Shown here: positions 1-20,791 of the stretch, piece after piece
Numbering within the stretch: position 1 is the first letter of the stretch
Layout: each line of letters starts with the position of its first letter
Source: Oligoflexales bacterium
Lineage (GTDB): Bacteria > Bdellovibrionota_B > Oligoflexia > Oligoflexales > Bog-1112
Assembly: GCA_045105515.1 (NCBI GenBank)
Contig: JBGCDR010000105.1
Coordinates: 1-20,897 of the forward strand
Reading direction: 5' to 3'
DNA: 20,897 nt
Notes under the pieces: model-generated
The model's database searches: none
Told to the model about the DNA's origin: nothing
What the model saw: the letters and a program-made list of their open reading frames with translations, nothing else
Made by a program: the position numbers and the translations under genes

Positions 1-131
1 TTATAAAGCATCAAGTTGGCCTTGATAGGACAAAAATAAATTAGTACGAAATAGTTGAATTAACTGATGTGTCGGAAAATTTAAACAAGTAGTTATACTG
101 ACTCAATTAAGAAATAAAAGCATTTCGGTCA

Positions 132-2736: not shown

Positions 2737-2765
2737 GTTCAATGCGGAACTCAACTTATCTTTTT
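2733..2765 (+). terminator. Possible intrinsic terminator or processing hairpin
   Basis: TTGAGTTC-aatgcg-GAACTCAA 8-bp stem overlapping the stop codon, followed by cttatcttttt. Confidence 0.4.
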
Positions 2766-2798
2766 ACTGTTAAAAGGGAATTTGAAGGATAAATATCC

Positions 2799-4581: not shown

Positions 4582-4615
4582 CAGTGCCATTTAACATAGA
4601 GTGTGGAAGATAAAA

Positions 4616-6043: not shown

Positions 6044-6071
6044 CTAATAATATCATGAAGGAAGCAGAGCC

Positions 6072-7073
6072 ATGTCCGATTTGAAGAAAATTATCATTGA
6101 TTGCTTGCAAACTCACTATCTCATTAAAGTCACCATGGTCAAACAGCTTGCGTTAGGAGCGGATATAAACGCATGTGTATTTGAAGCTCAAAGCAGTGAT
6201 GAAAAATCTTACTTCGTCAAAGTAAAAAATGGTCATCCTGATGAAATGAATTTGATGATTTTCGAGCTTTTGCAATCGGTAGGGATACAAGATATCATTT
6301 TTCCGCTCAAAACAACTGAAGGGAACCTAACTCATAAACATGATGACAATAACTTGATTGTTTACCCTTTTGTTGATGGTCAGGATGGATTTCATCGATC
6401 TTTAAGCCATCAACAATGGATTCGTCTCGGTAAAACATTATCAAAAATTCATAGCGTGGAAGTTCCTGGTTCAATACAAGACGTTATTCGACGAGAAGAT
6501 TTTTCTCCTAAGTGGAGAAATGTCGTTAAGTCTCTTTACGCTCAGATTGAAAAAATGGAAATTACTGATGAAATAGGCCTTAAATTCTCACAGCTCATAG
6601 TAGAGAATAAAGAAACTATTGAGCAGATGATAAATTATGCTGAAAAACTTGGTGTAGGTCTACAAAATCAGTCCCTAAAATATGTCCTGTGTCATTCAGA
6701 TATTCATGCTGGAAATATTCTATTAAGTGAAAACGATACGTTTCATATTGTCGATTGGGATGACCCGATAATGGCACCTAAAGAGAGAGATCTTATGTTT
6801 ATTGGTGGTGGCGTAGGAAATGTTTGGAATCAACAAAATGAGGAGGAGTTGTTTTATAAAGGCTATGAAAATGAATCGATAGACGAGACAATCCTAGCCT
6901 ATTATCGCTTTGAACGGATCGTTGAAGATATTGCAGAATATGGCCAGGAACTGCTTTTTAACGATGGTGTCAACAAAGATAGAGAGCAGATGTACAGAGA
7001 TGTTTTAGATCAGTTCGAACCGCAAGGCGTCATTGATATAGCTTTTCGAACTTATAAGAAGCTGGTTCAATAA
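6072..7073 (+). CDS. aph(9): APH(9)-like spectinomycin phosphotransferase
   Basis: GADINA, SYFVKVK, SPKWR, YVLCHSDIHAGNIL, DWDDPIMAPKERDLMFIGGGVGNVWN and YYRFERIVEDIA closely match my recollection of Legionella APH(9)-Ia. Confidence 0.8.
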   Translation: MSDLKKIIIDCLQTHYLIKVTMVKQLALGADINACVFEAQSSDEKSYFVKVKNGHPDEMNLMIFELLQSVGIQDIIFPLKTTEGNLTHKHDDNNLIVYPFVDGQDGFHRSLSHQQWIRLGKTLSKIHSVEVPGSIQDVIRREDFSPKWRNVVKSLYAQIEKMEITDEIGLKFSQLIVENKETIEQMINYAEKLGVGLQNQSLKYVLCHSDIHAGNILLSENDTFHIVDWDDPIMAPKERDLMFIGGGVGNVWNQQNEEELFYKGYENESIDETILAYYRFERIVEDIAEYGQELLFNDGVNKDREQMYRDVLDQFEPQGVIDIAFRTYKKLVQ

Positions 7074-7119
7074 AGAACTCCATTTGAGTCATTGGGGTCT
7101 TTTAATAAAGAGGTTTATA

Positions 7120-7752
7120 ATGGAATATCCAAATCCTAATCAACTATTTCCCATTCAGGGAACCAAACGTGTATGTTTCATTGCGAATACCGTCAAGAAT
7201 CCAAATATTAAAATTGGTGATTACACATATTATGATGATCCAGATGATGCAGAGAATTTTGAAAGGAACGTACTGTATCATTTTGACTTTGTTGGCGACC
7301 AGCTAATTATTGGAAAATTCTGTGCTATTGCAACAGGCGTAAAGTTCATCATGAACGGAGCCAACCATCGTTCAGATACTTTTTCATCTTATCCCTTTGC
7401 TGTTATGGGTGGTGAGTGGGCATCTATGCTAAAAGGACAAGATATTGGAGCTCCGTCAAAAGGTGATACAGTTATAGGAAATGATGTCTGGATAGGATAC
7501 GAAGCAACCATTATGCCAGGTGTGAAAATAGGAGATGGATCGATCATTGCATCCAAGTCAGTTGTCGTAAAAGATGTAGAGCCTTACTCTATTGTAGGTG
7601 GAAATCCTGCTAAAGAAATCAGAAAACGATTTGATGAGAAGACGGTTGGGGATTTGCTGCGATTAAAGTGGTGGGATTGGACAGTTGAAAAAATCACAAA
7701 AAGGCTTCCAAATATTTTTAGTAGCGACCGCTCAAAGCTTCAAAATTTATGA
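7120..7752 (+). CDS. vat: Vat/CatB-type xenobiotic O-acetyltransferase (streptogramin A acetyltransferase-like)
   Basis: PNPNQLFP, NPNIKIGDYTYYDD, VLYHFDFVGDQLIIGKFCAIA, MNGANH, KGDTVIGNDVWIG, hexapeptide repeats and WWDW. ATG 7120 follows AGAGG. Confidence 0.8.
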   Translation: MEYPNPNQLFPIQGTKRVCFIANTVKNPNIKIGDYTYYDDPDDAENFERNVLYHFDFVGDQLIIGKFCAIATGVKFIMNGANHRSDTFSSYPFAVMGGEWASMLKGQDIGAPSKGDTVIGNDVWIGYEATIMPGVKIGDGSIIASKSVVVKDVEPYSIVGGNPAKEIRKRFDEKTVGDLLRLKWWDWTVEKITKRLPNIFSSDRSKLQNL

Positions 7753-7837
7753 TGAGCCTTGACATCAAGGGATGTCTGTTGGCAAAAAAGATGTTTTTCT
7801 TAAGTTTTGGAACATGGCGACTTGTGCTCTCCTAAAG

Positions 7838-7859
7838 TAGCTCTCTCATTAGAGAGCTA
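7838..7859. terminator. Hairpin between the convergent vat-like and flavodoxin genes
   Basis: TAGCTCTCT-catt-AGAGAGCTA perfect 9-bp stem; weak U-tract. Confidence 0.45.
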
Positions 7860-8435
7860 GCGCTCTACATTTAAATATTCCAATTGGCCTCTCTTGAAAG
7901 TGGTTGTAATGGCAGCGATTCGCTTTCCAAACAACTCGGCAGTCAAGAGGTCTTCCACTCTTAATTTCTGATTCTTATCAGAAATGGAACTTGCCCCAAG
8001 TCCCATCCAGAATCCATCGCAGTTTCTTCGGTCCTTTGAATCAGAAAACTTGTCGCCTAATTCACTTTGTCCCACCCATATCATTCCATGTTGAGCAGCA
8101 AAAACTGCTAATTGAACCAGCGTCATTAGTTTGTCTCCGGATGGGCACCCTCCAACTGTGAATCCAGCAGCGACCTTGTCCTTCCAAGGCTGCTCAGTCC
8201 AAAATTTGCTTGTAGCATCCATGAAGCCTTTAAAGTGTGAGTCAGCACTGCCCATATATGTCGGTGAACCGAATACTAATCCATCCATTTTATGCAGATC
8301 TTCGATATCAAAATCTTGCCTGACATCTATAATCTGCACTCTAGCAATTTCCTCAATTCCTTTTGCAAGATGTTTTGCCACTAGTTCTGTGTGGCCACTG
8401 CCAGTTGAGTATAGGACTGCTATGTCTGCATTCAT
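7857..8435 (-). CDS. WrbA-like flavodoxin / NAD(P)H-dependent oxidoreductase
   Basis: FMN loop YSTGSGHT, FGSPTYMGS, WKDKVAAGFT, SGDK and AAQHGMIWVG. Alternative TTG start at 8444. Confidence 0.88.
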   Translation of the reverse strand: MNADIAVLYSTGSGHTELVAKHLAKGIEEIARVQIIDVRQDFDIEDLHKMDGLVFGSPTYMGSADSHFKGFMDATSKFWTEQPWKDKVAAGFTVGGCPSGDKLMTLVQLAVFAAQHGMIWVGQSELGDKFSDSKDRRNCDGFWMGLGASSISDKNQKLRVEDLLTAELFGKRIAAITTTFKRGQLEYLNVER

Positions 8436-8468
8436 TTTTCTCAATACTCCAAGAATTCTTTGGTCATT

Positions 8469-8882
8469 TTATCCCTCAATCTGTCTTTTCAAGCTTTCCA
8501 TGTCGTTGCGGACCCAACTTTCTTTTATTTTTCCATTTTCAAAACTCACCATCGTGAGACTGCTTATCTTTACTCTCCTTCCTGTGGCATCGAGGCCAAA
8601 AATATTTCCAGAATGTGTACCTTCAAAAGTGGCTTTTGAGGCAACGAAGGCATCTTCAGCAACAAGATGGTCGAGGGTTATTTTGAAATCTGGAAAAGCA
8701 CCTTTGAACATAGAGACAACTTGCTCTATGGCTTTTTTGCCTGAGTCAATATTGGGTGGTGCATCGTGCAATGTGTAGTCATCTGTGACATATTGATCGA
8801 GTAATTCAAGCTTCCCCTGATTGAAGATTTCCTCAATGTAGCTTCTATAGGTTATTTTGTTCTTTGAGGTTGTGCTTTCCAT
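8469..8882 (-). CDS. SnoaL-like ester cyclase family protein
   Basis: EIFNQG, AFPDFKITLDHLVAED, FEGTHSG, ATGRRV and ENGKIKESW. ATG 8882 follows the RBS AGGAG. Confidence 0.88.
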   Translation of the reverse strand: MESTTSKNKITYRSYIEEIFNQGKLELLDQYVTDDYTLHDAPPNIDSGKKAIEQVVSMFKGAFPDFKITLDHLVAEDAFVASKATFEGTHSGNIFGLDATGRRVKISSLTMVSFENGKIKESWVRNDMESLKRQIEG

Positions 8883-8915
8883 GATTTCTCCTGTTATTGG
8901 TGACTGAAAGTAGGT

Positions 8916-8946
8916 ATGATAAAACCTCAAGTTAACTTGAGGTCAA
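8916..8946 (-). promoter_or_regulatory. SoxR-activated promoter with sox box
   Basis: On the - strand, -35 TTGACC (8946-8941), 19-bp spacer and -10 TATCAT (8921-8916). The perfect palindrome ACCTCAAGTTAACTTGAGGT (8924-8943) matches the canonical SoxR operator. Confidence 0.93.
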
Positions 8947-8951
8947 GTAAA

Positions 8952-9407
8952 ATGAAGGAAAAAGCACAAGTTGCTATTAAAACAGAACTAACAGTCGGAG
9001 AATTGGCTGAAAGAAGCGGTGTAGCCGTCTCAGCACTTCATTTTTACGAACAAAAAGGGCTTATCCCAGCTTTTAGAACTGAGGGGAACCAAAGGCGTTT
9101 CCCAAGGGGGGTTTTAAGGCGCGTAGCTATTATCAAGGTTGCTCAAAGGCTAGGGATTTCACTAAATGAAATCGGAGATGCCTTTGATTCTCTGCCAAAA
9201 AACCGAGCACCGACAGCCAAGGATTGGGCAAAGCTGTCCTCAGTATGGCGGAAAGAACTAAACCAGCGTATTGAAGTCATGACAAAGCTAAGGGATCAAT
9301 TGAATGATTGTATCGGTTGTGGCTGTTTATCAATGTCTGAATGCCCATTGAGGAACCCCAAAGACAAACTTGGAAAGAAGGGTTCCGGTGCTAAGCTTCT
9401 GGAATAG
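8952..9407 (+). CDS. soxR: Redox-sensitive transcriptional activator SoxR
   Basis: Mer[49 protein letters not shown] and the [2Fe-2S] motif [12 protein letters not shown]. Confidence 0.96.
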
Positions 9408-9470
9408 AGATGCTAACTAAATTCAAAGACATCGGAAAATCGAATTGTTACAAGTCTATGAAGAAGAAAT

Positions 9471-9763
9471 ATGAAAAATAATGGTGTAACTGAACTTCTT
9501 ACTCAATTGGTTGAGGAAATAAATGGCCTTTACGGCTATTCTTCAATCCCTGATTTTGAAGGCCCATGCATTAACCTCGGGTCTTGTGGAGTTTTTGCCT
9601 ATGAATTTTACAAAGCATGGAATGACCTTTTTGAGGATAAGATTCATATTGTTTTTATAATGGACACGAAAACGAGGATTGTTGGCGTATTGTAGTTAGA
9701 CTAATAGATGGTTTAGTGATCTTGTCAGTGCTATCAAAGGAATTTGGATTCCTGCCTGATTAG
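9471..9763 (+). pseudogene. Probable frameshifted remnant of a hypothetical protein
   Basis: 74-aa ORF (INLGSCGVFA...HIVFIM). The -1 frame from the A-run at 9669-9672 continues ENEDCWRIVVRLIDG... to TAG 9761-9763. Confidence 0.45.
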
Positions 9764-9794
9764 GGACTAAATGGTTGTTTCGTTGTTTCTACTA

Positions 9795-9823
9795 TTGACA
9801 TTGCGAACTATTCCTAGTAGGTT
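9795..9823 (+). promoter_or_regulatory. Putative sigma70 promoter for the downstream methyltransferase
   Basis: TTGACA (9795-9800), 17-bp spacer, TAGGTT (9818-9823). Confidence 0.5.
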
Positions 9824-9977
9824 TTCCGCTATGAATACCTAAGAAAAAATCCCCTAAAAACCTGACCGTGATCAACACTACGAATGCAATATGTTGTGTA
9901 AGTTAGCTTCGCTAGCTTTCTTTACGTGATATTGGCATGTTAAAACGAAAATAAATTAAATTTTGGAGAACATAGGT

Positions 9978-10817
9978 ATGTTCAGCAAATTGATTAACAT
10001 AAATAAAAGGCCGACAGCCTTTGAATTTTACACCACCAAGACTTTGTGGACAGAGGACTATATTTCGAAGAAGATGCTGGAGATTCATTTGGATAGCAGC
10101 ACCGATCTTGCTACTAGGAAACCTGAATTCGTCAGAAAATCTGTTGATTGGATGGTTCGATATTTTTCAATAGGAAAAGATTTTAGGATTTGTGATTTTG
10201 GTTGTGGTCCAGGACTATACACAACTCCACTTGCACAAGTAGGAGCGAAGGTTACTGGAGTTGATTTTTCTAAAAGATCGATTAACTATGCAAATAAAGT
10301 AGCTGCTAAAGAAAAATTGGATATCGAATATATTCATAGTGACTATCTGAAGTATTCTTCGAATAGAAAATTCGATCTTGTTACTTTAATTTTCAATGAT
10401 TTTTGCGTTCTCTCTCCTCAGAAAAGAAAAGAGATGTTTAAGGTGTTTAAGGAGCATTTGGCGCCTGGGGGTAGTTTACTCCTTGATGTCTGCTCTTTGG
10501 AGCTATTTAACCAAGCTAAAGAATCAGTTAACTACGAATTTTCACAAAAAGATGGCTTTTGGTCAAACAACCCCTATTTTGAGTTTCAGAACACCTTCAA
10601 ATACGACAAGGAAAAAGTACTGCTTTATAAACATACAATCATAAACGACAAGTCTAAGAGAGAGATTTTCAACTGGCTTCAATGCTATGATTTGGCAAGT
10701 CTTGAAAATGAATTTCAAGAAAATGGCTTTACGATTATGGAACTCTTTTCTAATGTTTGTGGAGCTCCACTTGGTGATGAATCTGTAGACATTGCGGTCG
10801 TTGCAAAATTGCAATAA
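9978..10817 (+). CDS. Class I SAM-dependent methyltransferase
   Basis: ICDFGCGPGLY motif I, VTGVDFSKRSI, FDLVTLIFNDFCVL and LAPGGSLLLDV. ATG 9978 follows GGAGA. Confidence 0.9.
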   Translation: MFSKLININKRPTAFEFYTTKTLWTEDYISKKMLEIHLDSSTDLATRKPEFVRKSVDWMVRYFSIGKDFRICDFGCGPGLYTTPLAQVGAKVTGVDFSKRSINYANKVAAKEKLDIEYIHSDYLKYSSNRKFDLVTLIFNDFCVLSPQKRKEMFKVFKEHLAPGGSLLLDVCSLELFNQAKESVNYEFSQKDGFWSNNPYFEFQNTFKYDKEKVLLYKHTIINDKSKREIFNWLQCYDLASLENEFQENGFTIMELFSNVCGAPLGDESVDIAVVAKLQ

Positions 10818-10846
10818 TGCAGGATATGGAATTACTTTCTTTCTTC

Positions 10847-13141
<2,295 letters not shown>

Positions 13142-13396
13142 CCTAAATAGACTTAAAATTATGAATGAGATTTGGTGGTTATCTTTGTAATTCGAAAGGT
13201 GATAAAGACCCTGCCAATGTTGAAATTAGTCGATTCCCAAAGAGATGAAAACAACAAGCTTCTATGCTATCTCTAAATTGACGCTAGCTTGCCAGGTTAG
13301 AAACAATGCGCATACTTGCTGAACTATTTTTCCTTAGCCTTAGACTGCTTAGCAGCCTAGGATGAATCATTTATCATTTTTTTCAAGGAAATTTCC

Positions 13397-13762
13397 ATGA
13401 TCAAATTCTACGGCTACAAAAAATGCAGCACCTGCCGCAAGGCTGAAACCTTCCTTGAAAAGAACAAAGTCGGTTATGACTTTATCGATATAACTGAGAA
13501 CCCACCATCCAAGGCTCAGCTCAAGAAAATTCTGAAAAACAGCGGACAGCTGATCAAGAAGCTATTCAACACAAGTGGGCAGGTTTATCGCGAAATGGGG
13601 CTGAAGGATAAGGTAGATACTCTGGGTGAAAGTGAGATTTTCAGCATGATGGCGGATAACGGCAAGCTGATCAAACGGCCTCTGGCTTTTGATGGTGAAA
13701 AGGCCACGATTGGATTCCGCGAAGAGGATTATAAGCAAATTTGGAAGCGGCGACGTGATTAA
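13397..13762 (+). CDS. ArsC/Spx/MgsR family protein (YffB/YusI-like)
   Basis: FYGYKKCSTCRKA CxxC, FNTSGQVYRE and LIKRPL motifs; RBS AAGGA. Confidence 0.9.
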   Translation: MIKFYGYKKCSTCRKAETFLEKNKVGYDFIDITENPPSKAQLKKILKNSGQLIKKLFNTSGQVYREMGLKDKVDTLGESEIFSMMADNGKLIKRPLAFDGEKATIGFREEDYKQIWKRRRD

Positions 13763-13773
13763 TTTTTAGGCTT

Positions 13774-14049
13774 GTTTTGGTATGGTTGAGTACCTATGAG
13801 TATAGAGTGGTAAGTGATCTTAGATTTGTTAATTCCCACTTGGCAGCTCATTAAAAGCTTGAGATAGTTCCTGTAGGGGGAGGGGCGTCGCTGACGACCT
13901 TTCGATGGGGATCTTTGACATTGTTAGTAGATTGGAACTGAGCCGCGGGGGCGGGGGTGCTTTGGTTTCGGTAGAATGAGTGACATCGAATAAGCGGACA
14001 CAAAACGGACACAAATTTTGTACTTTTGGGTACCAAACCATACCAAAAC
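13774..14049. repeat. 21-bp imperfect inverted repeat pair bracketing a 276-bp G-rich segment
   Basis: GTTTTGGTATGGTTGAGTACC (13774-13794) versus GGTACCAAACCATACCAAAAC (14029-14049): 19/21 complementary, outer 14 bp perfect. Confidence 0.8.
13995..14016 (+). repeat. Tandem direct repeat CGGACACAAA(A/T) x2, putative integrase arm-type sites
   Basis: CGGACACAAAA CGGACACAAAT at an 11-bp period, about 130 bp left of the putative att core. Confidence 0.6.
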
Positions 14050-14137
14050 TTGTGCTTCCTTCGCTTTATTTGGTTAACGGTTTTACCAATGAATACCAAA
14101 GCATATTGCTCAGTATCCATCTTGTTTATGGCTTCCG

Positions 14138-14167
14138 CCACGCGGCGGCATGGGCGGCATGATGTAG
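14138..14167 (+). other. Putative att core: orphan copy of the groEL 3' end (GGMGGMM*)
   Basis: GGC GGC ATG GGC GGC ATG ATG TAG (14144-14167) encodes the GroEL GGM tail. There is no groEL body upstream, and it lies 163 bp from the integrase stop. Confidence 0.75.
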
Positions 14168-14211
14168 GATTATCCTACTGATTCCGACCGGTTACCTGGT
14201 CTTCGTGGCCC

Positions 14212-14302
14212 CGTGGCACGAATTTCCGGCACAATTCAGGCTTCAAAACCTGAAAAAAGGCTGGAAATAGAGGATCTTCTCGAAGATCCACGCGGCACAC
14301 TT
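14212..14302 (+). repeat. GGCAC-core direct repeats, putative arm-type sites of the adjacent integrase
   Basis: tGGCACgaat (core 14215), cGGCACaatt (14228) and cGGCACactt (14294). CCACGCGGC occurs at both 14138 and 14288. Confidence 0.5.
14272..14289 (-). terminator. Hairpin downstream of the integrase
   Basis: GGATCTTC-tc-GAAGATCC inverted repeat about 40 bp past the int stop, followed by tctattt on the - strand. Confidence 0.45.
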
Positions 14303-14329
14303 GATTCTTAAAAGGGTTTCTTCTCATCC

Positions 14330-15742
14330 CTAGTTCTTGCTGGAACGGATGAGTCGAAGCCCTTTTTTAATTGAGACAACATTGCCAATAGTCTCCTCAA
14401 TGACCTCGTTTTTTTCAGAAACTGAGACCTCCTCATTTCCTTTATTTGAACCATCTTTAGGTGTACTTTGCTCATCCTCAGACTTTTGTTTTAGCCGATC
14501 TTTCCTTGACCATTGGCGAGAAGCTGTATCATTGATGATGTCGCCGTGAACATATCGCATGGTCGTTTTGATATCCGAGTGCCCAGCAATTTGCTGCACT
14601 TTAGGGACAGGCAAAGGTTTTTCCATCCCATAGCCATTGGCCAAGTTTGTCAGACAAGTATGACGGAGACTGTGAAAATGGATCTCTTTAATACCAGCCC
14701 AGCGGCAAGTGCGAGAGAAGCATTTGATGCTGTTCATGTGAATATTGAAAAGGGGTTCTTTTTGAGGAGTATGCCTCTTTCTCATCAATATTTCCCTGAC
14801 ATCATCATTGATTTCAATGCGTCTGGCTTTCTTGCTTTTGGTGGTATTCTTACGAACCTTTTCTTTGTTGCTATATGACGCTCTAACAATAAGAAAGCCC
14901 CGAACTAAATCCACATCAGCATTGCGAATTGCACCAATTTCTCCAAGCCTCATTCCGGTACGCAAGGCAAATAAAACGATATCTCGAAGTTCCTGAGGAT
15001 TTCTAATCTGTAACTTTATAACTACTTTTTTTTTGCCTTTATGATGGTAACGTGAGGTTTCCTTTTCATAAAAACCACCAGCTTCTATCCAATCCAGAAA
15101 CTGATCTTCTTCCTCCAAACGCCAGTAGTCAAAAAGATGTTCTGGAGTTTTTGGGAGTTTGAAAGTCTCGAAAGGATTATCAGGAATTAAAGGAGGTCTT
15201 CGAGCAAATCCCCAAGAAGTAATCATGCAAGCAACAGTTAAAATTTCTCGTTGATAGGAAAGGCTTAGTTTATCTTCATCCTCGATGGCATTGTTTTCCC
15301 AGTGGGTCTTTCTAATGGCTAAATAGGATTTACTTTTAGCCTTTTTTATCCGAAGTTCTTTTGCCAATTTTTCAAGATGATCCAATTTTAATTTTCTCAA
15401 CTCAATCTGACCAAAAACAGGAAAGATATGATTTTTTAGATGACAAGAGTAATTCATAAGACATGATTCAGATATTTGCCTCACATGTCTTCCATGCTCG
15501 ATCCACCTAGCAGCTAGGTCTTGAAACGTCTTGAGGGATTCATTTATTTCTGACTCATTAGGGAACCAATGAGAGAGATTATCACCTCTAGCTATCGCCC
15601 GTTTCAAATTTTCAGCTTCAGTTTTGGTTCGACAGCTCTTGTTGCGATAAATGCCATCGGCATCATCATAAAACCTAACTTTCCAAGTTCCATATTCAGA
15701 TTGGTAAATTTTTGGTTCACTTTTGTTGTAATTGTTCTTCAT
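14330..15742 (-). CDS. int: Tyrosine recombinase / phage-type integrase
   Basis: N-terminal arm-binding-like beta domain (WKVRFYD...TKTEAE), SAM-like domain, and catalytic TGMR, TKSKK, HSLRH, AGH and TTMRY. ATG 15742 has the RBS AAGGAG and an ATGA overlap with xis. Confidence 0.95.
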   Translation of the reverse strand: MKNNYNKSEPKIYQSEYGTWKVRFYDDADGIYRNKSCRTKTEAENLKRAIARGDNLSHWFPNESEINESLKTFQDLAARWIEHGRHVRQISESCLMNYSCHLKNHIFPVFGQIELRKLKLDHLEKLAKELRIKKAKSKSYLAIRKTHWENNAIEDEDKLSLSYQREILTVACMITSWGFARRPPLIPDNPFETFKLPKTPEHLFDYWRLEEEDQFLDWIEAGGFYEKETSRYHHKGKKKVVIKLQIRNPQELRDIVLFALRTGMRLGEIGAIRNADVDLVRGFLIVRASYSNKEKVRKNTTKSKKARRIEINDDVREILMRKRHTPQKEPLFNIHMNSIKCFSRTCRWAGIKEIHFHSLRHTCLTNLANGYGMEKPLPVPKVQQIAGHSDIKTTMRYVHGDIINDTASRQWSRKDRLKQKSEDEQSTPKDGSNKGNEEVSVSEKNEVIEETIGNVVSIKKGLRLIRSSKN

Positions 15743-15939
15743 TTTGATCGTTCTCCTTGTAGCTGAGTCAGCACTTCGCTGACTCGAAACCTCAAAGAAT
15801 GACCAAGTTTGTAGTACGGAATTTTCTCCTGTTTTCGCCACTTGCGGATAGTATGGATCGACACCCTAAGGGTCTTCGCCAATTCTGCCGCAGTGACAAA
15901 TTTTTCGCTTATTCGGTTGTCAAAGATCACGCCACCCAT
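15739..15939 (-). CDS. xis: Excisionase-like HTH_17 DNA-binding protein
   Basis: FVTAAELAKTLRVSIHTIRKW...IPYYKLGHSLRF. ATG 15939 follows AAGGAGG; coupled to int. Confidence 0.85.
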   Translation of the reverse strand: MGGVIFDNRISEKFVTAAELAKTLRVSIHTIRKWRKQEKIPYYKLGHSLRFRVSEVLTQLQGERSK

Positions 15940-16015
15940 GGGCAAGCCTCCTTTTATATCTTCAATTTGCGATTTCTCAAAGGGAGAGAGACAAGTGCTT
16001 GGATTCAAAAGGAAC

Positions 16016-16759
16016 TTAGTTGAAAAGATTTCTCTCATGGGCCACTTCGCATCCTAATTTGGCCATTCGAGAAAGAATCGCGGCTGAAGCTTCAGGACAG
16101 AGTTCAACCCCGAGGCCAATCCTGCCGAGTTGCTCAGCAGCTTCAAAAATGGCTCCTGATCCTGCAAAAAGATCGAGAACAGCCTCATCTCTTAGGGTGT
16201 GATTGAGCATGGGGATTGTGTAGACCCCAATAGGTTTTTCTGTGGGATGAATACGTAGTTTTGGTTTAACAGAAGGAACATTCCATACAGATCGTTGCTT
16301 TCTATCCCCTGTCCAATGATCTGTAACCTTTACTCCTTGTTTTACACAAACTAAGCATTGCTCATGCTGGAGATGATAGAGGTGACGTTGCAAGGAGAAA
16401 TGATTTTTTACCCAGATGATCATTTGTTTGATGTCATAGCCAGCATCTTGGATGGATCGAGCAACTACATCGTAATGTTTGTAGGAAAACCACACATAGA
16501 GGACAGGAGCTTGTGACAAACGAAAGGCATTCCCCCAGCTTACAATATGATCGTTTTTCAATTTCAGTTTGTAGAGACTCTCATTAGCACACCTAGATGT
16601 GTAGCTGATCCCGTAAGGAGGATCTGTTAGGCACAATTTTGGTTTGTTCCCCCTTAGGAAAGCATCAAGCATTACTTTTTCAGTGCTGTCACCACAAAGC
16701 AGTCTATGCTTGCCCATTTTCCAGATGTCACCAAATTTAACTTTGTATTTTTCTGTCAT
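16016..16759 (-). CDS. Orphan N4-C/N6-A DNA methyltransferase (beta order of motifs)
   Basis: GDIWKMGKHRLLCGDS, catalytic TDPPY, HPTEKP and SAM-binding VLDLFAGSG. ATG 16759 follows AAGGAG. Confidence 0.92.
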   Translation of the reverse strand: MTEKYKVKFGDIWKMGKHRLLCGDSTEKVMLDAFLRGNKPKLCLTDPPYGISYTSRCANESLYKLKLKNDHIVSWGNAFRLSQAPVLYVWFSYKHYDVVARSIQDAGYDIKQMIIWVKNHFSLQRHLYHLQHEQCLVCVKQGVKVTDHWTGDRKQRSVWNVPSVKPKLRIHPTEKPIGVYTIPMLNHTLRDEAVLDLFAGSGAIFEAAEQLGRIGLGVELCPEASAAILSRMAKLGCEVAHERNLFN

Positions 16760-16848
16760 CTTTACTCCTTTGATTGAGCAAATAGTCACGAAGGATGGCG
16801 GCTGAATCTATGCCATCTCCCCGCCGAATGCTGAGCATCGTCATGCCG

Positions 16849-17220
16849 TTAATTGGATTCCTTTGGATTTGCCTGCTCTTTGATTTGATTGACCTGAGGC
16901 AATCCTTTAGCTAGAAGCATTTTCAAAAATTCATCTTTAGAAATGGTTCCACTTTGTTGACAGTATTTTTTGAATTGGATTTCCAAATGATCCTGGCTTG
17001 AGAAAGTTGCTTCCTTAATCTCTTTAATTTGAGGTTCACAAATCAGTTGCAGAGCCTTTAAAATCACGTTGTCCTGCTTGACTCTGCGTCCATGGGATTT
17101 TCGATTGCATTTGCTGACGATCGATTTTAGTAATCTAGCTGTGGTTTTGCTGACTCTAATTGGAATTGTGTTTGATGTTGTTGTTTTGGGTGACATTTTT
17201 TCTGTGGAGTTTGAATCCAT
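16849..17220 (-). CDS. Small basic DNA-binding protein, ribbon-helix-helix-like
   Basis: Alternating beta strand TIPIRVS followed by helices KTTARLLKSIV and QDNVILKALQL; RBS AAGGAG. Confidence 0.55.
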   Translation of the reverse strand: MDSNSTEKMSPKTTTSNTIPIRVSKTTARLLKSIVSKCNRKSHGRRVKQDNVILKALQLICEPQIKEIKEATFSSQDHLEIQFKKYCQQSGTISKDEFLKMLLAKGLPQVNQIKEQANPKESN

Positions 17221-17260
17221 AGTAAGCTCCTTAGATGGCTTGTTGTTATGAATATGAATA

Positions 17261-17390
17261 GGGGCAGAGAGAAGGAAGTGGAGAAATGAGACAAGGACAT
17301 AGATAAGGGCAAGAAGGAAATGAGAGGAAGAAATAGAGAAAGAGATACGGGAAACGAGAGAAAAAGAAAGGGAACGAGAAATAGCGAAAC
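17261..17390 (+). other. Polypurine tract in the relaxase-RHH intergenic region (candidate oriT/ori component)
   Basis: Hand count gives 113 of 130 nt as A/G, built from degenerate GAGAAA/GAAA units. Confidence 0.7.
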
Positions 17391-17460
17391 AAGTAGTCAG
17401 TCAGGATTGAAATATATAGCTAAAGTGCCTATTATCAAAGGGATGTGTCGTTTCTTGAAT

Positions 17461-17472
17461 GTGGGTACCCAC
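17461..17472. repeat. Perfect 12-bp palindrome GTGGGTACCCAC
   Basis: Self-complementary sequence 24 bp from the stop of the relaxase-like gene. Confidence 0.8.
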
Positions 17473-17495
17473 CTGCTTTCCATCAGCAACCCATA

Positions 17496-18215
17496 TCACA
17501 AAGTCAGAATCGCATTGTGATAATTCTTAAATTGCAATGATTCATTTTTTAGTAATAAATTGCTTACTTGGTAGAAAAACTTTGGTTGATCGCTGCTGAA
17601 TAACTCTCGCTCAATGCCCATTACTTTGTTACAAATTGATTGGCTGTCGGAGATGAATAAAATGAGTGGGTATATGTCAGAGTTGTAGTATTTCTTTAAA
17701 AAATCATCGTAGCGACGTTCCATTTTAAGAGTGCATTCATACTCAATCGGCAACTCAACTGCTTCAGACTGGATAATTGTAGTAACGATGGCATCAGAAT
17801 TTAGCCTGCATGCTTCATTTGTGCCCCATGTCTGGATCTCATTTTCTGTAGTATAATACTTAGTCTTATTTGAGTTCAATAAACTATGGCGAATGTCTAC
17901 CAGAGCAACATCATGATGCACCGAATCAGATTTTATTTCGATACGTTTTTCATTTCCCCTTCTAACAAAGTTCTCAAATGATTTTTTGGTATTGGAGACA
18001 ATTCTTTTTCCTTTTAGTAGTAAGCGACTTCTCTGAATTTGTACCAACCTATTGTCTTCTAATTTTCTGATTCTGTTACCAAGGCTTTCTTGAGTAATAT
18101 CACTGAAGACATCTCTGGTGATCTGCTCATAGGTAGCTGCTTTAACAGCATGTAAATACTTAAAGAGTAAAATATCCCTTTCATCGAGGTACATTCCCAT
18201 AATTTGTTGTTTCAT
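17496..18215 (-). CDS. Replication-relaxation (Replic_Relax / MOB_C-like) relaxase
   Basis: N-terminal winged HTH (LDERDILLF...ATYEQI...RIRKLEDNRLV) and HHDVAL. The motif D-x16-EYE-C-x2-K-x3-RY fits the MOB_C D-x(6-17)-ExE-[RL]-x2-K-x3-R-[YF] signature except at one position. Confidence 0.75.
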   Translation of the reverse strand: MKQQIMGMYLDERDILLFKYLHAVKAATYEQITRDVFSDITQESLGNRIRKLEDNRLVQIQRSRLLLKGKRIVSNTKKSFENFVRRGNEKRIEIKSDSVHHDVALVDIRHSLLNSNKTKYYTTENEIQTWGTNEACRLNSDAIVTTIIQSEAVELPIEYECTLKMERRYDDFLKKYYNSDIYPLILFISDSQSICNKVMGIERELFSSDQPKFFYQVSNLLLKNESLQFKNYHNAILTL

Positions 18216-19747
18216 GTGTTCTCCTTAACTGCCCCGTATGCCCTCTTGTGTTGTTTTGCTACCTTGCTCTTTTCCACATCACCCAACATTGGAGTGAACA
18301 TCTTCTTTTTCCCATTAGAAAATTGATCAACAATTCCTAGGCATCTTGCTTTAATCGTCTTTTCATCAATAAAGGGAGCCTGAACGATCACTTTCTTGGT
18401 GCCATAGTTCCACACCCCTCGACCTGGTATTTCAGGAAGGTCGCAAGCATCCTTCGTTCCCAAGACAATCAAGCTTCCTTGAAGAGAATTAGCACGAAAT
18501 GCCATGCGCCCTGAAATGTTCTCAGATACTGAGGTGGGGATGACCTGTCTATCAAGCTTTTGTGTTGCAAGGATCAAATGAATACTGGCAGCACGAGACA
18601 ACTTAGAGATAGAATCAGCAAGCTGTCTTGCTTCAAGTGCCGATTGGTATTCTGGATCATTTCTGGGCCGATTCATATACAGAACAGAGCATTCATCCAC
18701 ACCAACCACGATCCTATCCTTGTGGTCTTTCTCTGGAATGATTTGCTTACGGCTCTTGGCCTCAAGATACCTAAATCTGTCTTTCATCTCCTTTTCCACT
18801 CGCCTCAAAACCACCAAGGCATCGTCCATGGTCTTTACTACCTTGACGTTGGGACACTTCACAAAGTCGATCATCTCTACGCCGCCTTTGAGATCAATCA
18901 GATACATTTGCAAATGTGGTGATGATTCCAAGAGCCCCATGATAATTTGCTTAAACTGAACCGATTTACCACTGCCTGTGGTGCCTGCAATGATCATGTG
19001 GGGCAATTCATCGATGCGTTGTGTCACGACTCCTTCACCTGACATTCCAAGGAAGAACCCCTCTTTTGGCAAGACATTAGATGCAACAAGATCCGTGTAT
19101 TTGACTTTTTCTGGAAACTTCATCGTGCTAAAGGTTACAACGATCTGTCCTTGGTGTTTGCCATGTTTGATTGATTCGACATTTGTTCTAAAGAACGATT
19201 CCAAATGGCTTTTTTTGTCGCTGAAATTTTCTAAGCTAACCCCATTAGCATCAAAAATATAACTCCTTCGATGTTTATCATGCTTCTCAATTCTGATTAA
19301 TTTGGGTGTATCTTTCCTACCGTTTTGAATCCCGATCATTTCAAATAGCTTTTGATACTTTGTTCTTGTAGCTCTTGCCCATCCCCCTAAAACAAGCACT
19401 AATGGACTTAAAAACAAAATAAACAATACAATCCAGTGATACAAGATTGGGATATCATACATCCAACCAATTCGTTTCATGGTAATAAGATCAGGCTCTA
19501 ATTCATGAATCCAAACGATATGGATGCCATTTGCTGCTATATAAAAACTGTAATAAAGTAGAGCTATGAGGCTACCCCAGGAGAATGGGAACCACCTAGA
19601 GATGAGAGATTTTAGAAAAACCCATGTACCTATACTCGACACAACAATGAATTCTTGCAGGAACTCATTGAATGCAATTGCTAGTGCATCAGGCTGAGAC
19701 CCTGTTTTATTTTGAAACTTTTCTTTGCTATTAGGATATTTGTCCAT
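18212..19747 (-). CDS. FtsK/SpoIIIE-domain membrane ATPase (putative coupling protein / DNA translocase)
   Basis: N-terminal TM segments, PHMIIAGTTGSGKS Walker A, IDLKGG, VGVDE Walker B, SRAASIHLILATQK and LPEIPGRG. ATGA overlap with the relaxase. Confidence 0.9.
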   Translation of the reverse strand: MDKYPNSKEKFQNKTGSQPDALAIAFNEFLQEFIVVSSIGTWVFLKSLISRWFPFSWGSLIALLYYSFYIAANGIHIVWIHELEPDLITMKRIGWMYDIPILYHWIVLFILFLSPLVLVLGGWARATRTKYQKLFEMIGIQNGRKDTPKLIRIEKHDKHRRSYIFDANGVSLENFSDKKSHLESFFRTNVESIKHGKHQGQIVVTFSTMKFPEKVKYTDLVASNVLPKEGFFLGMSGEGVVTQRIDELPHMIIAGTTGSGKSVQFKQIIMGLLESSPHLQMYLIDLKGGVEMIDFVKCPNVKVVKTMDDALVVLRRVEKEMKDRFRYLEAKSRKQIIPEKDHKDRIVVGVDECSVLYMNRPRNDPEYQSALEARQLADSISKLSRAASIHLILATQKLDRQVIPTSVSENISGRMAFRANSLQGSLIVLGTKDACDLPEIPGRGVWNYGTKKVIVQAPFIDEKTIKARCLGIVDQFSNGKKKMFTPMLGDVEKSKVAKQHKRAYGAVKENT

Positions 19748-19756
19748 ACATCACAC

Positions 19757-20791
19757 CTACACCTTTCTTGCTACAGCTGACGCAGCTCCAGTGGTTCCAC
19801 CTGTAGCTGCTCCAACTCCAATATCTTTGGCATCAGTAACCACTTGAGGCGCTTGTTCTGTTTGTGAATCAGTCAAAAATGATGAGAATAGACCGTAGCC
19901 TAGGATCAGCGTCGGCAGTGGGCCTACAAGAATTTGCAACCAAGAGTAGAGTGCATAGAATTGGTAAAGCTTTGCAGTCACGAAACTAGCAGAATACAAC
20001 GAAATTCCATCGGATATCTCCCCCCACTCCATCATGAGATCATTGGAAACAGCAATACTGGTCATTAAATGGTAAAGCAGTGTCCAAATTGGGGTCCACA
20101 GAAGAACTGAGATATACAAAGCAAACCAAGCAATGATTACCTTCCAACGACCTGCTATAACAAAGAAGATGAGCCAAGGGAACAGAAAGATAAGAAACAT
20201 CTTTACCATGCCTTTGAGGTGAGGTGCTCTTTGAAGATACTCGGAAAATTTCTCAGCTCGCTCTGCGGTTAATGCAGCACCAACTTGATCCCTTTGCCCC
20301 AATGTGGACAGAAAACCATCCCAGGACCAAAAACGGCTCCAACCGTGGATGATTTTGGCTAATGTCCCTCGAACCTCAGAGCCTTTTTGAATACCTAAAT
20401 TATCCTCAGTTTGTGCTAGGTAGTGGTTGACTAAAACATTTGAAGCGATGAGATTGCGCTCGTCGGTCTCAGTGATCTCACTGCGTCTGATGGAATATTT
20501 CCCTGAATAGCTTTGATAGAACTTAGCTCCTTTTCTTTCTGCATAAGACCATAGGTTTGAGCGCACCAGATTTTTCAAAGTGAGGCAATTAATCTTGCTA
20601 CCATCGTCAAGGGTGATTGGGATGTGCTTTAATTCACGGTCGATAACCCCATTGAGTCCAAAAAATTCATCTATTTTGTCTTTTCTAGCTGTCATTCCAA
20701 GCATGGGAAGAATCTTGTCAAAGCAGCTATCCGTATAGACATCAATCTTGTCTCTGAGAGCCAGGGTTGATTCAAGTAAGCTTTTAACCAA
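19757..20791 (-). CDS. TraG_N/VirB6-like polytopic membrane protein, probably 5'-truncated
   Basis: Soluble region with two Cys, then PHLKGMVKMFLIFLFPWLIF...YISVLLWTPIW TM helices and a Gly/Ala-rich tail. TTG start without an RBS; in-frame stop at 20816-20818. Confidence 0.55.
   Translation of the reverse strand: MVKSLLESTLALRDKIDVYTDSCFDKILPMLGMTARKDKIDEFFGLNGVIDRELKHIPITLDDGSKINCLTLKNLVRSNLWSYAERKGAKFYQSYSGKYSIRRSEITETDERNLIASNVLVNHYLAQTEDNLGIQKGSEVRGTLAKIIHGWSRFWSWDGFLSTLGQRDQVGAALTAERAEKFSEYLQRAPHLKGMVKMFLIFLFPWLIFFVIAGRWKVIIAWFALYISVLLWTPIWTLLYHLMTSIAVSNDLMMEWGEISDGISLYSASFVTAKLYQFYALYSWLQILVGPLPTLILGYGLFSSFLTDSQTEQAPQVVTDAKDIGVGAATGGTTGAASAVARKV

What the first reader, a model, noticed from the sequence alone, without database searches (positions are those of the whole stretch)
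14138..14167. Hidden att site: an orphan GroEL C-terminal tail (GGMGGMM*) next to the integrase
Seen: a GC-rich 24-mer in AT-rich intergenic DNA reads GGC GGC ATG GGC GGC ATG ATG TAG, with no chaperonin ORF upstream, 163 bp from the integrase 3' end. It is too short for the ORF track. Known: GroEL ends in GGM repeats, and tyrosine-integrase elements duplicate the 3' end of their target gene (groEL is a target of some staphylococcal SaPIs). Inference: this integrase targets the last codons of groEL and restores them on integration.
Basis: partly seen in the sequence, partly recalled or inferred. Interest (0 to 1): 0.8.

Follow-up and report, generated by a model that had tools for sequence, protein, structure and literature searches.

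The report
Mobile-element docking site copying groEL's end
The stray copy of the last codons of the chaperonin gene groEL is a real docking (att) site: it marks the seam between two large transferable DNA elements inserted one behind the other after groEL in an uncultured Oligoflexales bacterium, a known principle seen here in a new element family.

Summary
Observation confirmed: GGCGGCATGGGCGGCATGATGTAG (GGMGGMM*) lies at 14144-14167, 162 nt from the 3' end of a tyrosine integrase, with no groEL in the window. The genome's only groEL (contig C131) ends in this sequence (23/24) and is followed by a 61%-identical integrase. A third copy (C404) also has a paralogous integrase beside it. Integrase homologues lie beside groEL in 11 of 18 relatives' loci and 17 of 25 named Oligoflexales loci, including Oligoflexus tunisiensis. 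There a 22-bp groEL-tail repeat bounds an 82.7-kb element.

One correction: the tail is not the far end of its neighbouring integrase's element. It is a shared seam. It is attR of a ~59-kb conjugative element (E1) that starts at groEL on C131 and runs into the window through an IS-split ABC-F gene. It is also attL of a second element (E2). E1's private arm repeats (CGGACACA) flank the tail on the left and E2's (CGGCACA) on the right.

groEL-end targeting (staphylococcal PICIs) and tandem accretion are both known, so this is a new member of a known kind.

The parts
1..137 (.). End of a multicopy insertion sequence that breaks the assembly. The opposite IS end forms the last 137 nt of contig C131.
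   Evidence: The terminal 31-mers of C105 and C131 recur at the ends of at least 10 other contigs each (the list was cut at 10). Imperfect terminal inverted repeats were seen by eye in the print.
138..147 (+). CTCTGTAGCT, the target-site duplication of that IS. The same 10-mer is at C131:76711-76720.
132..1121 (+). 3' two-thirds of an ABC-F (ribosomal-protection-like) gene, cargo of E1. The 5' third lies at the end of C131.
   Evidence: NCBIfam ribo_prot_ABC_F profile positions 181-498 of 499. A 504-aa homologue from G011 aligns by residues 5-181 to the C131 end and by residues 179-488 to window 138-1064.
148..14143 (.). Distal (cargo) 14 kb of element E1. Genes: ABC-F, P-loop kinases, GNAT-GrpB, methyltransferases, NUDIX, two APH-family kinases, hexapeptide transferase, flavodoxin-like, SnoaL, MerR, a 764-aa 2OG-Fe(II) oxygenase protein, ArsC.
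   Evidence: Pfam; contiguity with C131; E1-type arm repeats at its end
13995..14013 (+). P-arm pair of direct repeats CGGACACA (13995 and 14006, period 11), 149 nt before the tail. Read as arm-type sites of the E1 integrase.
   Evidence: The 8-mer occurs 32 times genome-wide. The paired form occurs at only two places: here, and next to the E1 integrase at C131:31561/31574, where a third copy lies at 31626. The same geometry is seen at 4 other orphan junctions and in O. tunisiensis.
14031..14047 (+). TACCAAA pair (14031 and 14041, with a third copy at 14094). A similar ATACCAA motif recurs in the P arms of C404 and O. tunisiensis. Candidate sites for an accessory factor (Xis or a host bending protein); this is inference only.
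14144..14167 (+). Core: the last 7 codons plus stop of groEL (GGMGGMM*). It is attR of E1 and attL of E2, and strand exchange is inferred to occur inside it.
14168..14185 (+). GATTATCCTACTGATTCC: 18 nt that resemble the native sequence downstream of groEL in relatives with apparently unoccupied sites. Together with the stop codon it forms the palindrome GTAGGAT-T-ATCCTAC (14164-14178).
   Evidence: Match of 42/43 to C404. Compare G013 (GATTTTCTTACTGAGTTCC), G007 and G005. Palindrome position.
14186..14201 (+). Small hairpin GACCGGTTACCTGGTC with a TTAC loop. A hairpin with a TTA(C) loop lies at this position in most related elements.
   Evidence: by eye
14214..14299 (+). P'-arm repeats of E2: TGGCACGA (14214) and CGGCACA (14227), period 13, about 46 nt after the stop; third copy CGGCACA at 14293.
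   Evidence: An exact pair of period 13 lies at +43 to +47 in 21 of 24 related loci and in 14 of 30 groEL loci of relatives.
14330..15841 (-). Tyrosine integrase Int2 of E2. The likely start is the ATG at 15742 (470 aa). It has the catalytic R...HxxR...H...Y residues and an N-terminal domain of three strands plus a helix.
15739..16038 (-). Excisionase-type HTH protein (Xis)
   Evidence: Pfam HTH_17 2.5e-10; NCBIfam TIGR01764 'excise' 29.9 bits against a cutoff of 28.8
16016..16789 (-). N6/N4 DNA methyltransferase of E2
   Evidence: the homologue in E1 is at C131:33390-34199
16849..20791 (-). Start of the E2 transfer module: two proteins of unknown family (123 and 239 aa), an FtsK/SpoIIIE-type ATPase (18212-19747), and a gene cut off by the IS at the contig end (19757-20791). 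It is 87.6% identical in DNA to E1 (window 16916-20767 against C131:34239-38079).

Best explanation
The orphan GGMGGMM* tail is the shared att site between two integrative conjugative elements stacked in tandem behind groEL in an Oligoflexales (Bdellovibrionota) genome.

E1 is about 59.2 kb plus one IS. It starts directly after the groEL stop on contig C131 with its integrase Int1. It continues through an F-like transfer module and cargo, crosses an IS-split ABC-F gene into the window, and ends at 14143. The tail (14144-14167) is therefore attR of E1. E2 starts immediately to its right with its own P' arm, Int2, Xis, a methylase and a transfer module, so the same tail is attL of E2.

The integrases resemble lambda Int and are read as heterobivalent (inferred). 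Their catalytic and core-binding domains would act on a common core, the last 21-24 nt of groEL. Their N-terminal domains would bind element-specific arm repeats at fixed positions: a pair of period 13 about 45 nt right of the stop, and a pair of period 11 about 149 nt left of the tail. Each element carries the groEL tail in its attP, so integration leaves groEL intact and creates one orphan tail per element. A further element can integrate into an existing att site, which gives the array.

Shown by sequence: the three tail copies, the integrase paralogues, the arm repeats, the link between contigs, and the conservation in relatives. Inferred: which protein binds which repeat, the exact crossover point (between positions 4 and 22 of the 24-mer), and present-day activity.
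For: 1. Copies. A search of all 461 contigs for the 24-mer with <=2 mismatches gives 3 hits: the window, C404:8175-8198, and the 3' end of groEL at C131. groEL is single-copy.

2. Integrases. Int paralogues (61-62% identity) lie right of all three copies in the same orientation.

3. E1/E2 homology. Window 16916-20767 is 87.6% identical to C131:34239-38079, and the int region is 69% identical.

4. Arm repeats. Paired CGGACAC repeats occur at only two places in the genome: C131:31561 next to Int1, and window 13995 left of the tail. The right arm in the window carries CGGCACA instead.

5. Contiguity. C131 ends and the window begins with opposite ends of one IS, flanked by the same 10-mer. The two flanks are consecutive parts of one ABC-F gene: G011 homologue residues 5-181 and 179-488.

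6. E1 is a conjugative element. It carries TraC/VirB4-like, TrbI, TraU, a T2SSE ATPase, FtsK-like and Prim-Pol/DUF3987 proteins.

7. The same logic holds elsewhere. In two other MAGs the repeat left of an orphan tail equals the repeat of that MAG's groEL-adjacent element: L064 CGACACGG against L066 CCGACACGA, and L063 CGCCCCGAA against L061 TGCGCCCCGAATT. In O. tunisiensis a 22-bp repeat 82.7 kb apart has CGGACCA pairs in both arms.

8. Register. All orphan tails begin in the same register, 21 nt before the stop; one, L077, is ambiguous by a single base.

9. Integrase fold. Invariant R, HxxR, H and Y. The model has three strands and a helix at residues 11-52 with pLDDT near 80. The best fold matches are full-length lambda Int (1z1b, E 2.3e-9) and Tn1549 Int.

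10. Assembly. Contigs of three runs cover 13400-14900 in one piece with no differences. These runs may be the source of this DNA, so they are not independent.
Against: No excised circle, empty site or joint was seen; only contigs could be laid, and they showed none.

The outermost attR of the array was not found. This would be a tail followed by chromosomal DNA with no integrase. E2's far end was not found either. Only 3 tails are in the assembly, and two candidate CGGCAC-like pairs on C34 and C135 have no tail within the 170 nt printed after the pair.

The C131-to-window link is inferred from a split gene, a 10-bp duplication and the arm repeats, not read through.

The bin is a MAG of 461 contigs with 4.83% contamination, so strain mixing cannot be excluded.

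Both elements carry IS insertions, so they may no longer move. E1 has one in the ABC-F gene plus further transposase and RT genes. E2 has one in a conserved transfer gene at the window's end.

Pfam does not recognise the N-terminal domain, so arm binding rests on a model and on repeat geometry.

C404's arms do not fit the simple rule. Its P' arm has a CCCAATAA pair and also one ACCACAGAT copy that matches the left neighbour's repeat.
Confidence: 0.85

Rival explanations
1. The window shows attP of a free, circular or plasmid-like form of E2. On this reading the left 14 kb is E2's own distal end, and the tail has never been recombined with a neighbour.
For: An attP would look the same locally: arm, tail, arm, int. 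The contig ends in IS copies on both sides, so its wider context is not read directly. The tail plus 18 nt (42 nt) mimics attB, as an attP would.
Against: The left-arm repeats are CGGACACA, identical to those beside Int1 at groEL, not E2's CGGCACA. In E1 and in the O. tunisiensis element the two arms of one element carry the same repeat. The window's left end continues the ABC-F gene that ends C131, the groEL contig. The same left/right mismatch, matched to the groEL-adjacent element, recurs in two other MAGs.
Confidence: 0.06
2. The junction is genuine but a fossil. One or both elements are immobilised, and the tail is a scar with no present function.
For: IS insertions lie in E1 cargo and in a conserved E2 transfer gene. 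E1 also holds DUF772 and DDE transposase genes and a reverse transcriptase gene. No excision product was seen. Arm-like repeat pairs without a recognisable integrase exist behind groEL in relatives (L039, L048) and after the O. tunisiensis orphan tail.
Against: Int1, Int2 and the C404 integrase are full-length ORFs, and the family's invariant catalytic residues are kept across an alignment that includes all three. Xis is intact. Arm repeats are exact in both E1 arms. The tail is identical to groEL at 23 of 24 positions.
Confidence: 0.3
3. Assembly chimera. The left and right halves of the window were joined wrongly at the repeated 42-43 bp, and the true neighbours differ.
For: The 43-bp block occurs twice and a 28-bp part a third time. 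The MAG is fragmented.
Against: The longest exact stretch shared with another copy is under 31 nt, by my count on the sequences printed. Contigs assembled separately from three runs all span 13400-14900 with 0 differences, although these may be the source data. Even if the window were chimeric, the tail would still be an att site.
Confidence: 0.03
4. Remnant of a decayed groEL paralogue or a chance GGM-coding repeat, unrelated to the integrase.
For: None beyond the coding look of the 24-mer.
Against: There is no further GroEL similarity in the window. 0 of 100 shuffles gave a match. The left boundary is the same, 21 nt before the stop, at independent orphan tails in other genomes (L077 ambiguous by one base). 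Every copy has an integrase to its right.
Confidence: 0.01

Closest known systems
Staphylococcal phage-inducible chromosomal islands at groEL (SeCISE48, SaPI2/SaPI2R, SePIfusB-857)
   Same: A tyrosine-integrase element inserts at the 3' end of groEL without altering the gene. For SeCISE48 the last 18 bp of groEL overlap the att site (PMC8125051, passages read). SaPI2R is flanked by 20-bp att repeats in groEL (PMC4457420, passage read). Here the overlap is 21-24 bp.
   Different: Those are roughly 15-kb phage satellites of Firmicutes. The elements here are ~59 kb (E1) and ~83 kb (O. tunisiensis) and conjugative, plus a 7-kb primase element, in Bdellovibrionota. No phage-packaging genes were seen among the genes scanned. 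Relatedness of the integrases was not tested because no SaPI integrase sequence was on hand.
Tandem accretion of ICEs, IMEs and CIMEs at one att site (ICESt1/ICESt3 and CIMEs at the 3' end of fda; streptococcal ICE-IME tandems)
   Same: [quoted passage not shown]
   Different: The target gene, host phylum and integrase family differ. Here each stacked element has its own arm-repeat word at fixed positions. I did not find this feature in the passages I read, and I did not search for it further.
Lambda Int, Tn1549 and Tn916-type heterobivalent tyrosine recombinases
   Same: Catalytic R/HxxR/H/Y residues, a SAM-like core-binding domain and a small N-terminal strand-helix domain. Repeats lie in both arms at a distance from the core. 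An excisionase gene is next to int.
   Different: Sequence identity to the solved structures is only 14-18%. The N-terminal domain matches no Pfam family. Binding of the arm repeats is inferred, not shown.
Mycobacteriophage Bxb1 attB in groEL1 of Mycobacterium smegmatis
   Same: A chaperonin gene serves as the integration target. This rests on recall; one search showed only the titles and abstract openings of Bxb1 papers, and those do not name the target gene.
   Different: A serine integrase with small att sites and no arm sites. By recall, integration interrupts groEL1 rather than restoring it.
Integrase-less cassettes at the groEL stop codon in SAR11
   Same: A site-specific att at the end of groEL with stacked inserts, as that note describes it. 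I did not check it.
   Different: Those cassettes are reported as about 1.5 kb and integrase-less, in another phylum. Here the elements are integrase-bearing ICEs.

Membership tests
Tyrosine recombinase (Phage_integrase, lambda Int type) | Catalytic domain with conserved Arg, His-x-x-Arg, His/Trp and the Tyr nucleophile | tested here: met
   Pfam PF00589 3.4e-20. R265, H357-R360, H388 and Y397 are invariant in 13 homologues (motifs read).
Tyrosine recombinase (Phage_integrase, lambda Int type) | Separate N-terminal arm-binding domain (three-stranded sheet plus helix) | tested here: inconclusive
   The AF2 model has strands 11-14, 20-26, 31-37 and helix 40-52 with pLDDT near 80. The best fold hit is full-length lambda Int. 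No Pfam arm-domain match was found.
Tyrosine recombinase (Phage_integrase, lambda Int type) | Arm-type repeats in both arms of attP, distinct from the core | tested here: met
   For E1, CGGACACA occurs three times in P' and twice in P. For O. tunisiensis, CGGACCA pairs are in both arms. Fixed geometry in 21 of 24 loci. Binding itself was not tested.
Tyrosine recombinase (Phage_integrase, lambda Int type) | Catalyses attP x attB recombination | not testable with these tools
   Needs an in vivo or in vitro assay.
Integrative and conjugative element (ICE) | Integrase plus excisionase at one end | tested here: met
   Int2 and Xis in the window; Int1 on C131
Integrative and conjugative element (ICE) | Own conjugative type IV secretion genes and coupling ATPase | tested here: met
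   E1 has TraC_F_IV/TraG P-loop, TrbI, TraU, T2SSE ATPase and FtsK_SpoIIIE. For E2 only the FtsK-type ATPase and homologues of E1 genes are visible before the contig ends.
Integrative and conjugative element (ICE) | Relaxase and oriT | not tested
No relaxase family was hit.
Integrative and conjugative element (ICE) | Direct repeats (attL/attR) bounding the element | tested here: met
   E1: groEL end and window tail, 27/28 over 28 bp. O. tunisiensis: 22/22, 82.7 kb apart. E2: far end not found.
Staphylococcal groEL-targeting PICIs (SaPI2 type) | att core overlaps the last codons of groEL and the gene stays intact | tested here: met
Staphylococcal groEL-targeting PICIs (SaPI2 type) | Phage-satellite gene set of about 15 kb (packaging and interference genes, phage-induced) | tested here: not met
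   Conjugation genes are present instead, and no packaging families appear. It works like these elements at the att site but is not a member.
Staphylococcal groEL-targeting PICIs (SaPI2 type) | Integrase of the SaPI2 type | not tested
Tandem accretion array | Two elements separated by one att copy, each with its own integrase of the same target specificity | tested here: met
Tandem accretion array | Outermost attR followed by chromosome | tested here: not met
   Only three tails are in the assembly, and none has the makings of the outermost attR: one is the real groEL end and each of the two orphan tails has an integrase to its right. The junction may lie in unassembled or unbinned DNA: the MAG is 90.9% complete, and E3's far arm runs into an IS.

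The most novel reading that the evidence does not exclude
The GGMGGMM* end of groEL is an order-wide landing pad in Oligoflexales. Many integrase lineages share one 21-nt core, but each has a private arm-repeat word (CGGACAC, CGGCAC, CCCAATAA, CGGGACGA, GATGACGA, TGGGCCA, CGGACCA, GCGACCC and others) at fixed positions. This is the reverse of lambda and HK022, which by recall share arm sites but differ in core. Such a bar code would let ICEs and small primase elements stack behind groEL and still excise independently. It would also provide a natural set of orthogonal integrase/arm pairs for one target.
Probability: 0.4. Interest if true: 0.6.

Novelty: new member of a known kind. Interest (0 to 1): 0.45.

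Why it matters
The finding explains an otherwise puzzling stray gene end and shows how the fragmented contigs of this MAG fit together: groEL, then E1, then E2. It also identifies the integration site of the F-like ICE family of Bdellovibrionota.

groEL's 3' end now appears as an integration hotspot in at least two unrelated lineages, staphylococci and Oligoflexales. An unchecked note of this scan adds SAR11.

The fixed arm geometry, with element-specific repeat words around one shared core, gives a testable natural system for how integrase arm specificity diversifies. The cultured, non-pathogenic Oligoflexus tunisiensis Shr3 carries a clean 82.7-kb example in which excision could be assayed.

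In practice, many relatives' contigs end just after groEL. Annotators of these genomes should expect stacked elements there.

Tried and rejected
- tRNA, tmRNA and Rfam scans of the window found nothing, so this is not a tRNA-type att.
- The search for related loci with the single integrase found no relative. The alignment-based repeat worked.
- A fourth tail was sought with up to 2-4 mismatches on three sub-windows of the site. None was found.
- E2's far end was sought through paired CGGCAC-like repeats. Two candidates (C34:49152, C135:17359) have no tail within the 170 nt printed after the pair, so both were rejected.
- I tried to find the native gene downstream of groEL by synteny. Downstream genes differ among relatives, and only a weak 35% paralogue exists in G000, so the array's chromosomal exit could not be located.
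- Pfam on the first 100 residues of Int2 and Int1 at E<=10 gave only noise.
- I tried to place E2's continuation by homology to E1. Many paralogous ICE pieces exist (C21, C350, C439, C64 and others, 64-74% identity), and none abuts window 20767 cleanly.
- Laying runs showed no joints or loose ends that indicate excision. Only contigs were available, so this says nothing about absence.
- Run X4, from another study, holds only two short low-depth pieces of the left arm. It is no evidence of habitat.
- Literature searches: groEL+attB+integrase+integrative (24 papers; from the listing alone none concerns Oligoflexia). 'end of groEL' + 'integrative and conjugative' (0 papers). Oligoflexus+integrase (2 papers, both on sul4). 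groEL+tandem+ICE+attR (6 papers, unrelated by title and abstract start). Bdellovibrio/ICE/integrase/groEL (40 papers hold at least 3 of the 4 terms and the top 10 were listed; none of those 10 is relevant by title). 'downstream of groEL' + genomic island (1 paper, unrelated). PMC7660254 mentions groEL only as an expression marker.
- One search failed on a term format and was rephrased. One search picked the wrong ORF through a script bug, corrected.

Full report
**Observation.** The window is one whole contig, C105 (20,897 bp), of a 6.29-Mb MAG with 461 contigs, 90.9% completeness and 4.8% contamination. At 14144-14167 the + strand reads GGCGGCATGGGCGGCATGATGTAG, which is GGMGGMM*. With up to 3 mismatches it occurs once in the window, and none of 100 shuffles gave a match. 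Its frame is open for only 24 codons, and tblastn with the genome's GroEL finds nothing in the window. A tyrosine integrase ORF (14330-15841, minus strand) ends 162 nt to the right. No tRNA, tmRNA or Rfam family is present.

**The tail in the genome.** A search of all contigs finds three copies.
- The window.
- C404:8175-8198, which is identical and matches 42/43 when the next 18 nt and one preceding base are included.
- The 3' end of the genome's only groEL (C131:29854-31515), which matches 23/24, or 27/28 with the following GATT.

Each copy has a paralogous integrase on the minus strand about 160-200 nt to its right. These are Int2 in the window, Int1 at C131:31714-33129 (61% identity) and the C404 integrase at 8359-9777 (62%). 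Three other integrase hits in the genome are only 31-37% identical over part of the protein.

**Relatives.**
- Spread of the integrase: among 41 genomes of the same order, 17 have an integrase match at E<=1e-30.
- Integrase loci from relatives (18): 11 contain groEL beside the integrase, 2 show only a weak 8-9-residue tail hit, and 5 show neither.
- groEL loci (30, starting from groEL): 11 have the integrase within 1.5 kb downstream. Several others end at a contig edge within 30-650 nt of the stop.
- Named records, found with an alignment of 13 integrases: the family belongs to Oligoflexales/Oligoflexia, including Pseudobdellovibrionaceae, Pseudobacteriovorax and Oligoflexus.
- Named loci with >=44% identity (25): 17 have groEL next to the integrase. 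5 have a clear orphan tail with no groEL (L063, L064, L068, L072, L077). 2 have a tail too close to the contig end to judge (L069, L070). 1 has none (L082).
- The 5 distant hits (L083-L087) have neither groEL nor a tail.

**A clean single example.** In the isolate Oligoflexus tunisiensis Shr3, groEL's tail at 2097423-2097508 is repeated as an exact 22-mer at 2014730-2014751. The repeat is on the same strand, 82.7 kb away, on the side where the integrase's element lies. That genome has only one integrase of this family.

**What the window's tail is.** It is not the far end of Int2's element. Three lines show it is the seam between two elements.

1. Arm repeats. The octamer CGGACACA occurs 32 times in the genome. 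As a closely spaced pair it occurs at only two places: beside Int1 at C131:31561/31574, with a third copy at 31626, and at window 13995/14006, left of the tail. Right of the tail the repeats are TGGCACGA/CGGCACA (14214/14227), with a third CGGCACA at 14293.

2. Contiguity.
   - C131 ends and the window begins with 137 nt of opposite ends of a multicopy IS, each next to the 10-mer CTCTGTAGCT.
   - The sequence before the IS on C131 and after it in the window are consecutive parts of one ABC-F gene.
   - A 504-aa homologue from G011 aligns by residues 5-181 to the C131 end (57%) and by residues 179-488 to window 138-1064 (51%).
   - NCBIfam places window ORF1 at profile positions 181-498 of 499.

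3. Gene content. C131 downstream of groEL is an ICE. It carries int, a methylase, an FtsK-type ATPase, TraC/VirB4-like, TrbI, TraU, a PilB/GspE-type ATPase and Prim-Pol/DUF3987, followed by cargo. The window's right part repeats the start of that layout and is 87.6% identical in DNA over 3.9 kb, but only 69% identical over int, xis and the methylase.

E1 therefore runs from C131:31516 to 76720, across the IS, and from window 148 to 14143. That is 59,201 bp without the IS. The tail is attR of E1 and attL of E2.

**Support for the join and for the pattern elsewhere.** Contigs from three runs span 13400-14900 without a difference. These runs may be the source of this DNA, so this is not independent support. 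The same pattern recurs in two other MAGs. The repeat left of the orphan tail equals that of the groEL-adjacent element of the same MAG, and differs from the repeat on the right. In one MAG, L064 upstream has CGACACGG, L066 has CCGACACGA, and L064 downstream has TCGGGACGATT. In the other, L063 upstream has CGCCCCGAA, L061 has TGCGCCCCGAATT, and L063 downstream has CGGTCAAA.

**Anatomy of the site.**
- Left boundary: all orphan tails begin in the same register, 21 nt before the stop; one, L077, is ambiguous by a single base.
- P' arm: an exact repeat pair of period 13 lies 43-47 nt after the stop in 21 of 24 related loci, and one more has period 14. The same holds for 14 of 30 groEL loci of relatives.
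- P arm: a pair of period 11 lies 143-151 nt before the tail at the window, L063, L064, L068 and L077. By my count on the print it lies about 146 nt before the O. tunisiensis orphan tail. C404 has an imperfect pair.
- Right of the tail: the window and C404 carry 18 nt (GATT[A/T]TCCTACTGATTCC) that resemble the sequence after groEL in relatives with no integrase or repeat pair downstream (G013, G007). With the stop codon these form a palindrome. G013, which has a TAA stop, keeps the palindrome through a matching change: GTAAGA...TCTTAC against GTAGGA...TCCTAC.
- Crossover: in G000 and in the MAG that holds L061 and L063, the groEL copy has GGT where the orphan has GGC at tail position 3. In O. 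tunisiensis identity ends at the first base of the stop codon. If these differences predate integration, the crossover lies between positions 4 and 22 of the 24-mer. This is inference.

**Integrase.** Int2 has the invariant R, HxxR, H and Y of tyrosine recombinases, and Pfam Phage_integrase and SAM-like domains. Its modelled N-terminus has three strands and a helix at good confidence. The best structural matches are full-length lambda Int and Tn1549 Int. No Pfam arm-domain family is matched. An excisionase-type HTH gene lies just upstream. A lambda-like heterobivalent mechanism is the best-supported reading. The protein-DNA contacts themselves are inferred.

**Comparison with what is known.**
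- Staphylococcal PICIs integrate at the 3' end of groEL, with the last 18 bp of the gene inside att and the gene unaltered (PMC8125051, passages). SaPI2R has 20-bp att repeats in groEL (PMC4457420, passage).
- The elements here are not PICIs: they carry conjugation genes and no packaging genes.
- My searches found no paper on groEL-targeting elements in Oligoflexia or Bdellovibrionota.
- Earlier notes of this scan describe the F-like conjugation module of Bdellovibrionota ICEs in this genome (e1-2192334) and integrase-less cassettes at the groEL stop in SAR11 (e1-5234453). I checked the first only in part and the second not at all.

**Open points.**
- No excision product was observed.
- The outermost attR and E2's far end are missing from the assembly.
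- IS insertions may have disabled one or both elements.
- C404's arms are mixed: a CCCAATAA pair plus one ACCACAGAT copy.

**Verdict.** It is a new member of a known kind, and interest is moderate.

Noticed in passing
window 1-147 and C131:76711-76857: A multicopy IS with imperfect terminal inverted repeats and a 10-bp duplication (CTCTGTAGCT) splits an ABC-F ribosomal-protection-like gene. Its end sequences sit at the ends of at least 10 other contigs each, so this IS is a main cause of the fragmented assembly.
   Followed up: partly
window 132-7752; C131:60057-62090: E1 cargo is a run of small-molecule-modifying enzymes: the ABC-F gene, P-loop kinases including a CPT-like one, a GNAT-GrpB fusion, methyltransferases, NUDIX, two APH-family kinases and a hexapeptide transferase. 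A second GrpB-GNAT plus APH pair lies further up E1. It looks like a collection of antibiotic-modification-type genes in an environmental bacterium.
   Followed up: no
window 10847-13141 (-): A 764-aa protein whose only recognised part is a 2OG-Fe(II) oxygenase domain (residues 121-211). No NCBIfam match; function unknown.
   Followed up: no
window 13775-13881 vs C404:7819-7925: A G+C-rich block of about 107 bp in the P arms of two different elements is 73% identical, 260-370 nt before each orphan tail. No Rfam hit. It could be an oriT, a regulatory RNA or a protein-binding region.
   Followed up: no
C404 (L057) 8217-15430: A small element (~7.2 kb) behind the third tail carries int, DUF3987 plus Prim-Pol, an HTH_3 repressor-like gene and unknowns. 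CCCAATAA pairs lie at both ends (8246/8259 and 15281/15292), and the far arm runs into an IS630-like transposase (DDE_3/HTH_33). Its P' arm also holds one ACCACAGAT copy that matches the left neighbour's arm repeat; this is unexplained. Left of the tail lie type I R-M, GmrSD and DUF4062 defence genes.
   Followed up: partly
L089 (O. tunisiensis NZ_BDFO01000001.1, about 2014600-2014730): Right after the orphan tail there is another P'-like arm: a hairpin with a TTAC loop and a CCGGACAA pair. No integrase of the family follows, which suggests the remnant of an older element (CIME-like).
   Followed up: partly
window 14164-14178; L033, L036, L026, C404:8195-8209: A palindrome spans the groEL stop codon and is kept by a compensating change when the stop is TAA instead of TAG (GTAAGA...TCTTAC against GTAGGA...TCCTAC). 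It could be core-type integrase sites or an mRNA 3' hairpin.
   Followed up: partly
G000 contigs C439, C64, C48, C21, C350, C150, C323, C144, C244: There are many further paralogous pieces of the same ICE family, 64-74% identical in DNA to E1. C48 carries other, distant integrases. This may explain why this MAG (6.29 Mb) is larger than the 40 relatives sampled (1.8-5.5 Mb).
   Followed up: no
L030 (G004:C97), downstream of groEL: The region after groEL in G004 encodes a homologue (49-57% identity) of the AAA_28 protein at window 3556-4581 but no integrase. E1-type cargo may have been left behind groEL in a relative.
   Followed up: no
groEL loci of relatives: In at least eight relatives the contig ends within a few hundred bases of the groEL stop (for example G005:C48, G002:C17, G017:C14, G006:C10, G033:C6). 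This fits variable or repeated elements at this site breaking assemblies.
   Followed up: no
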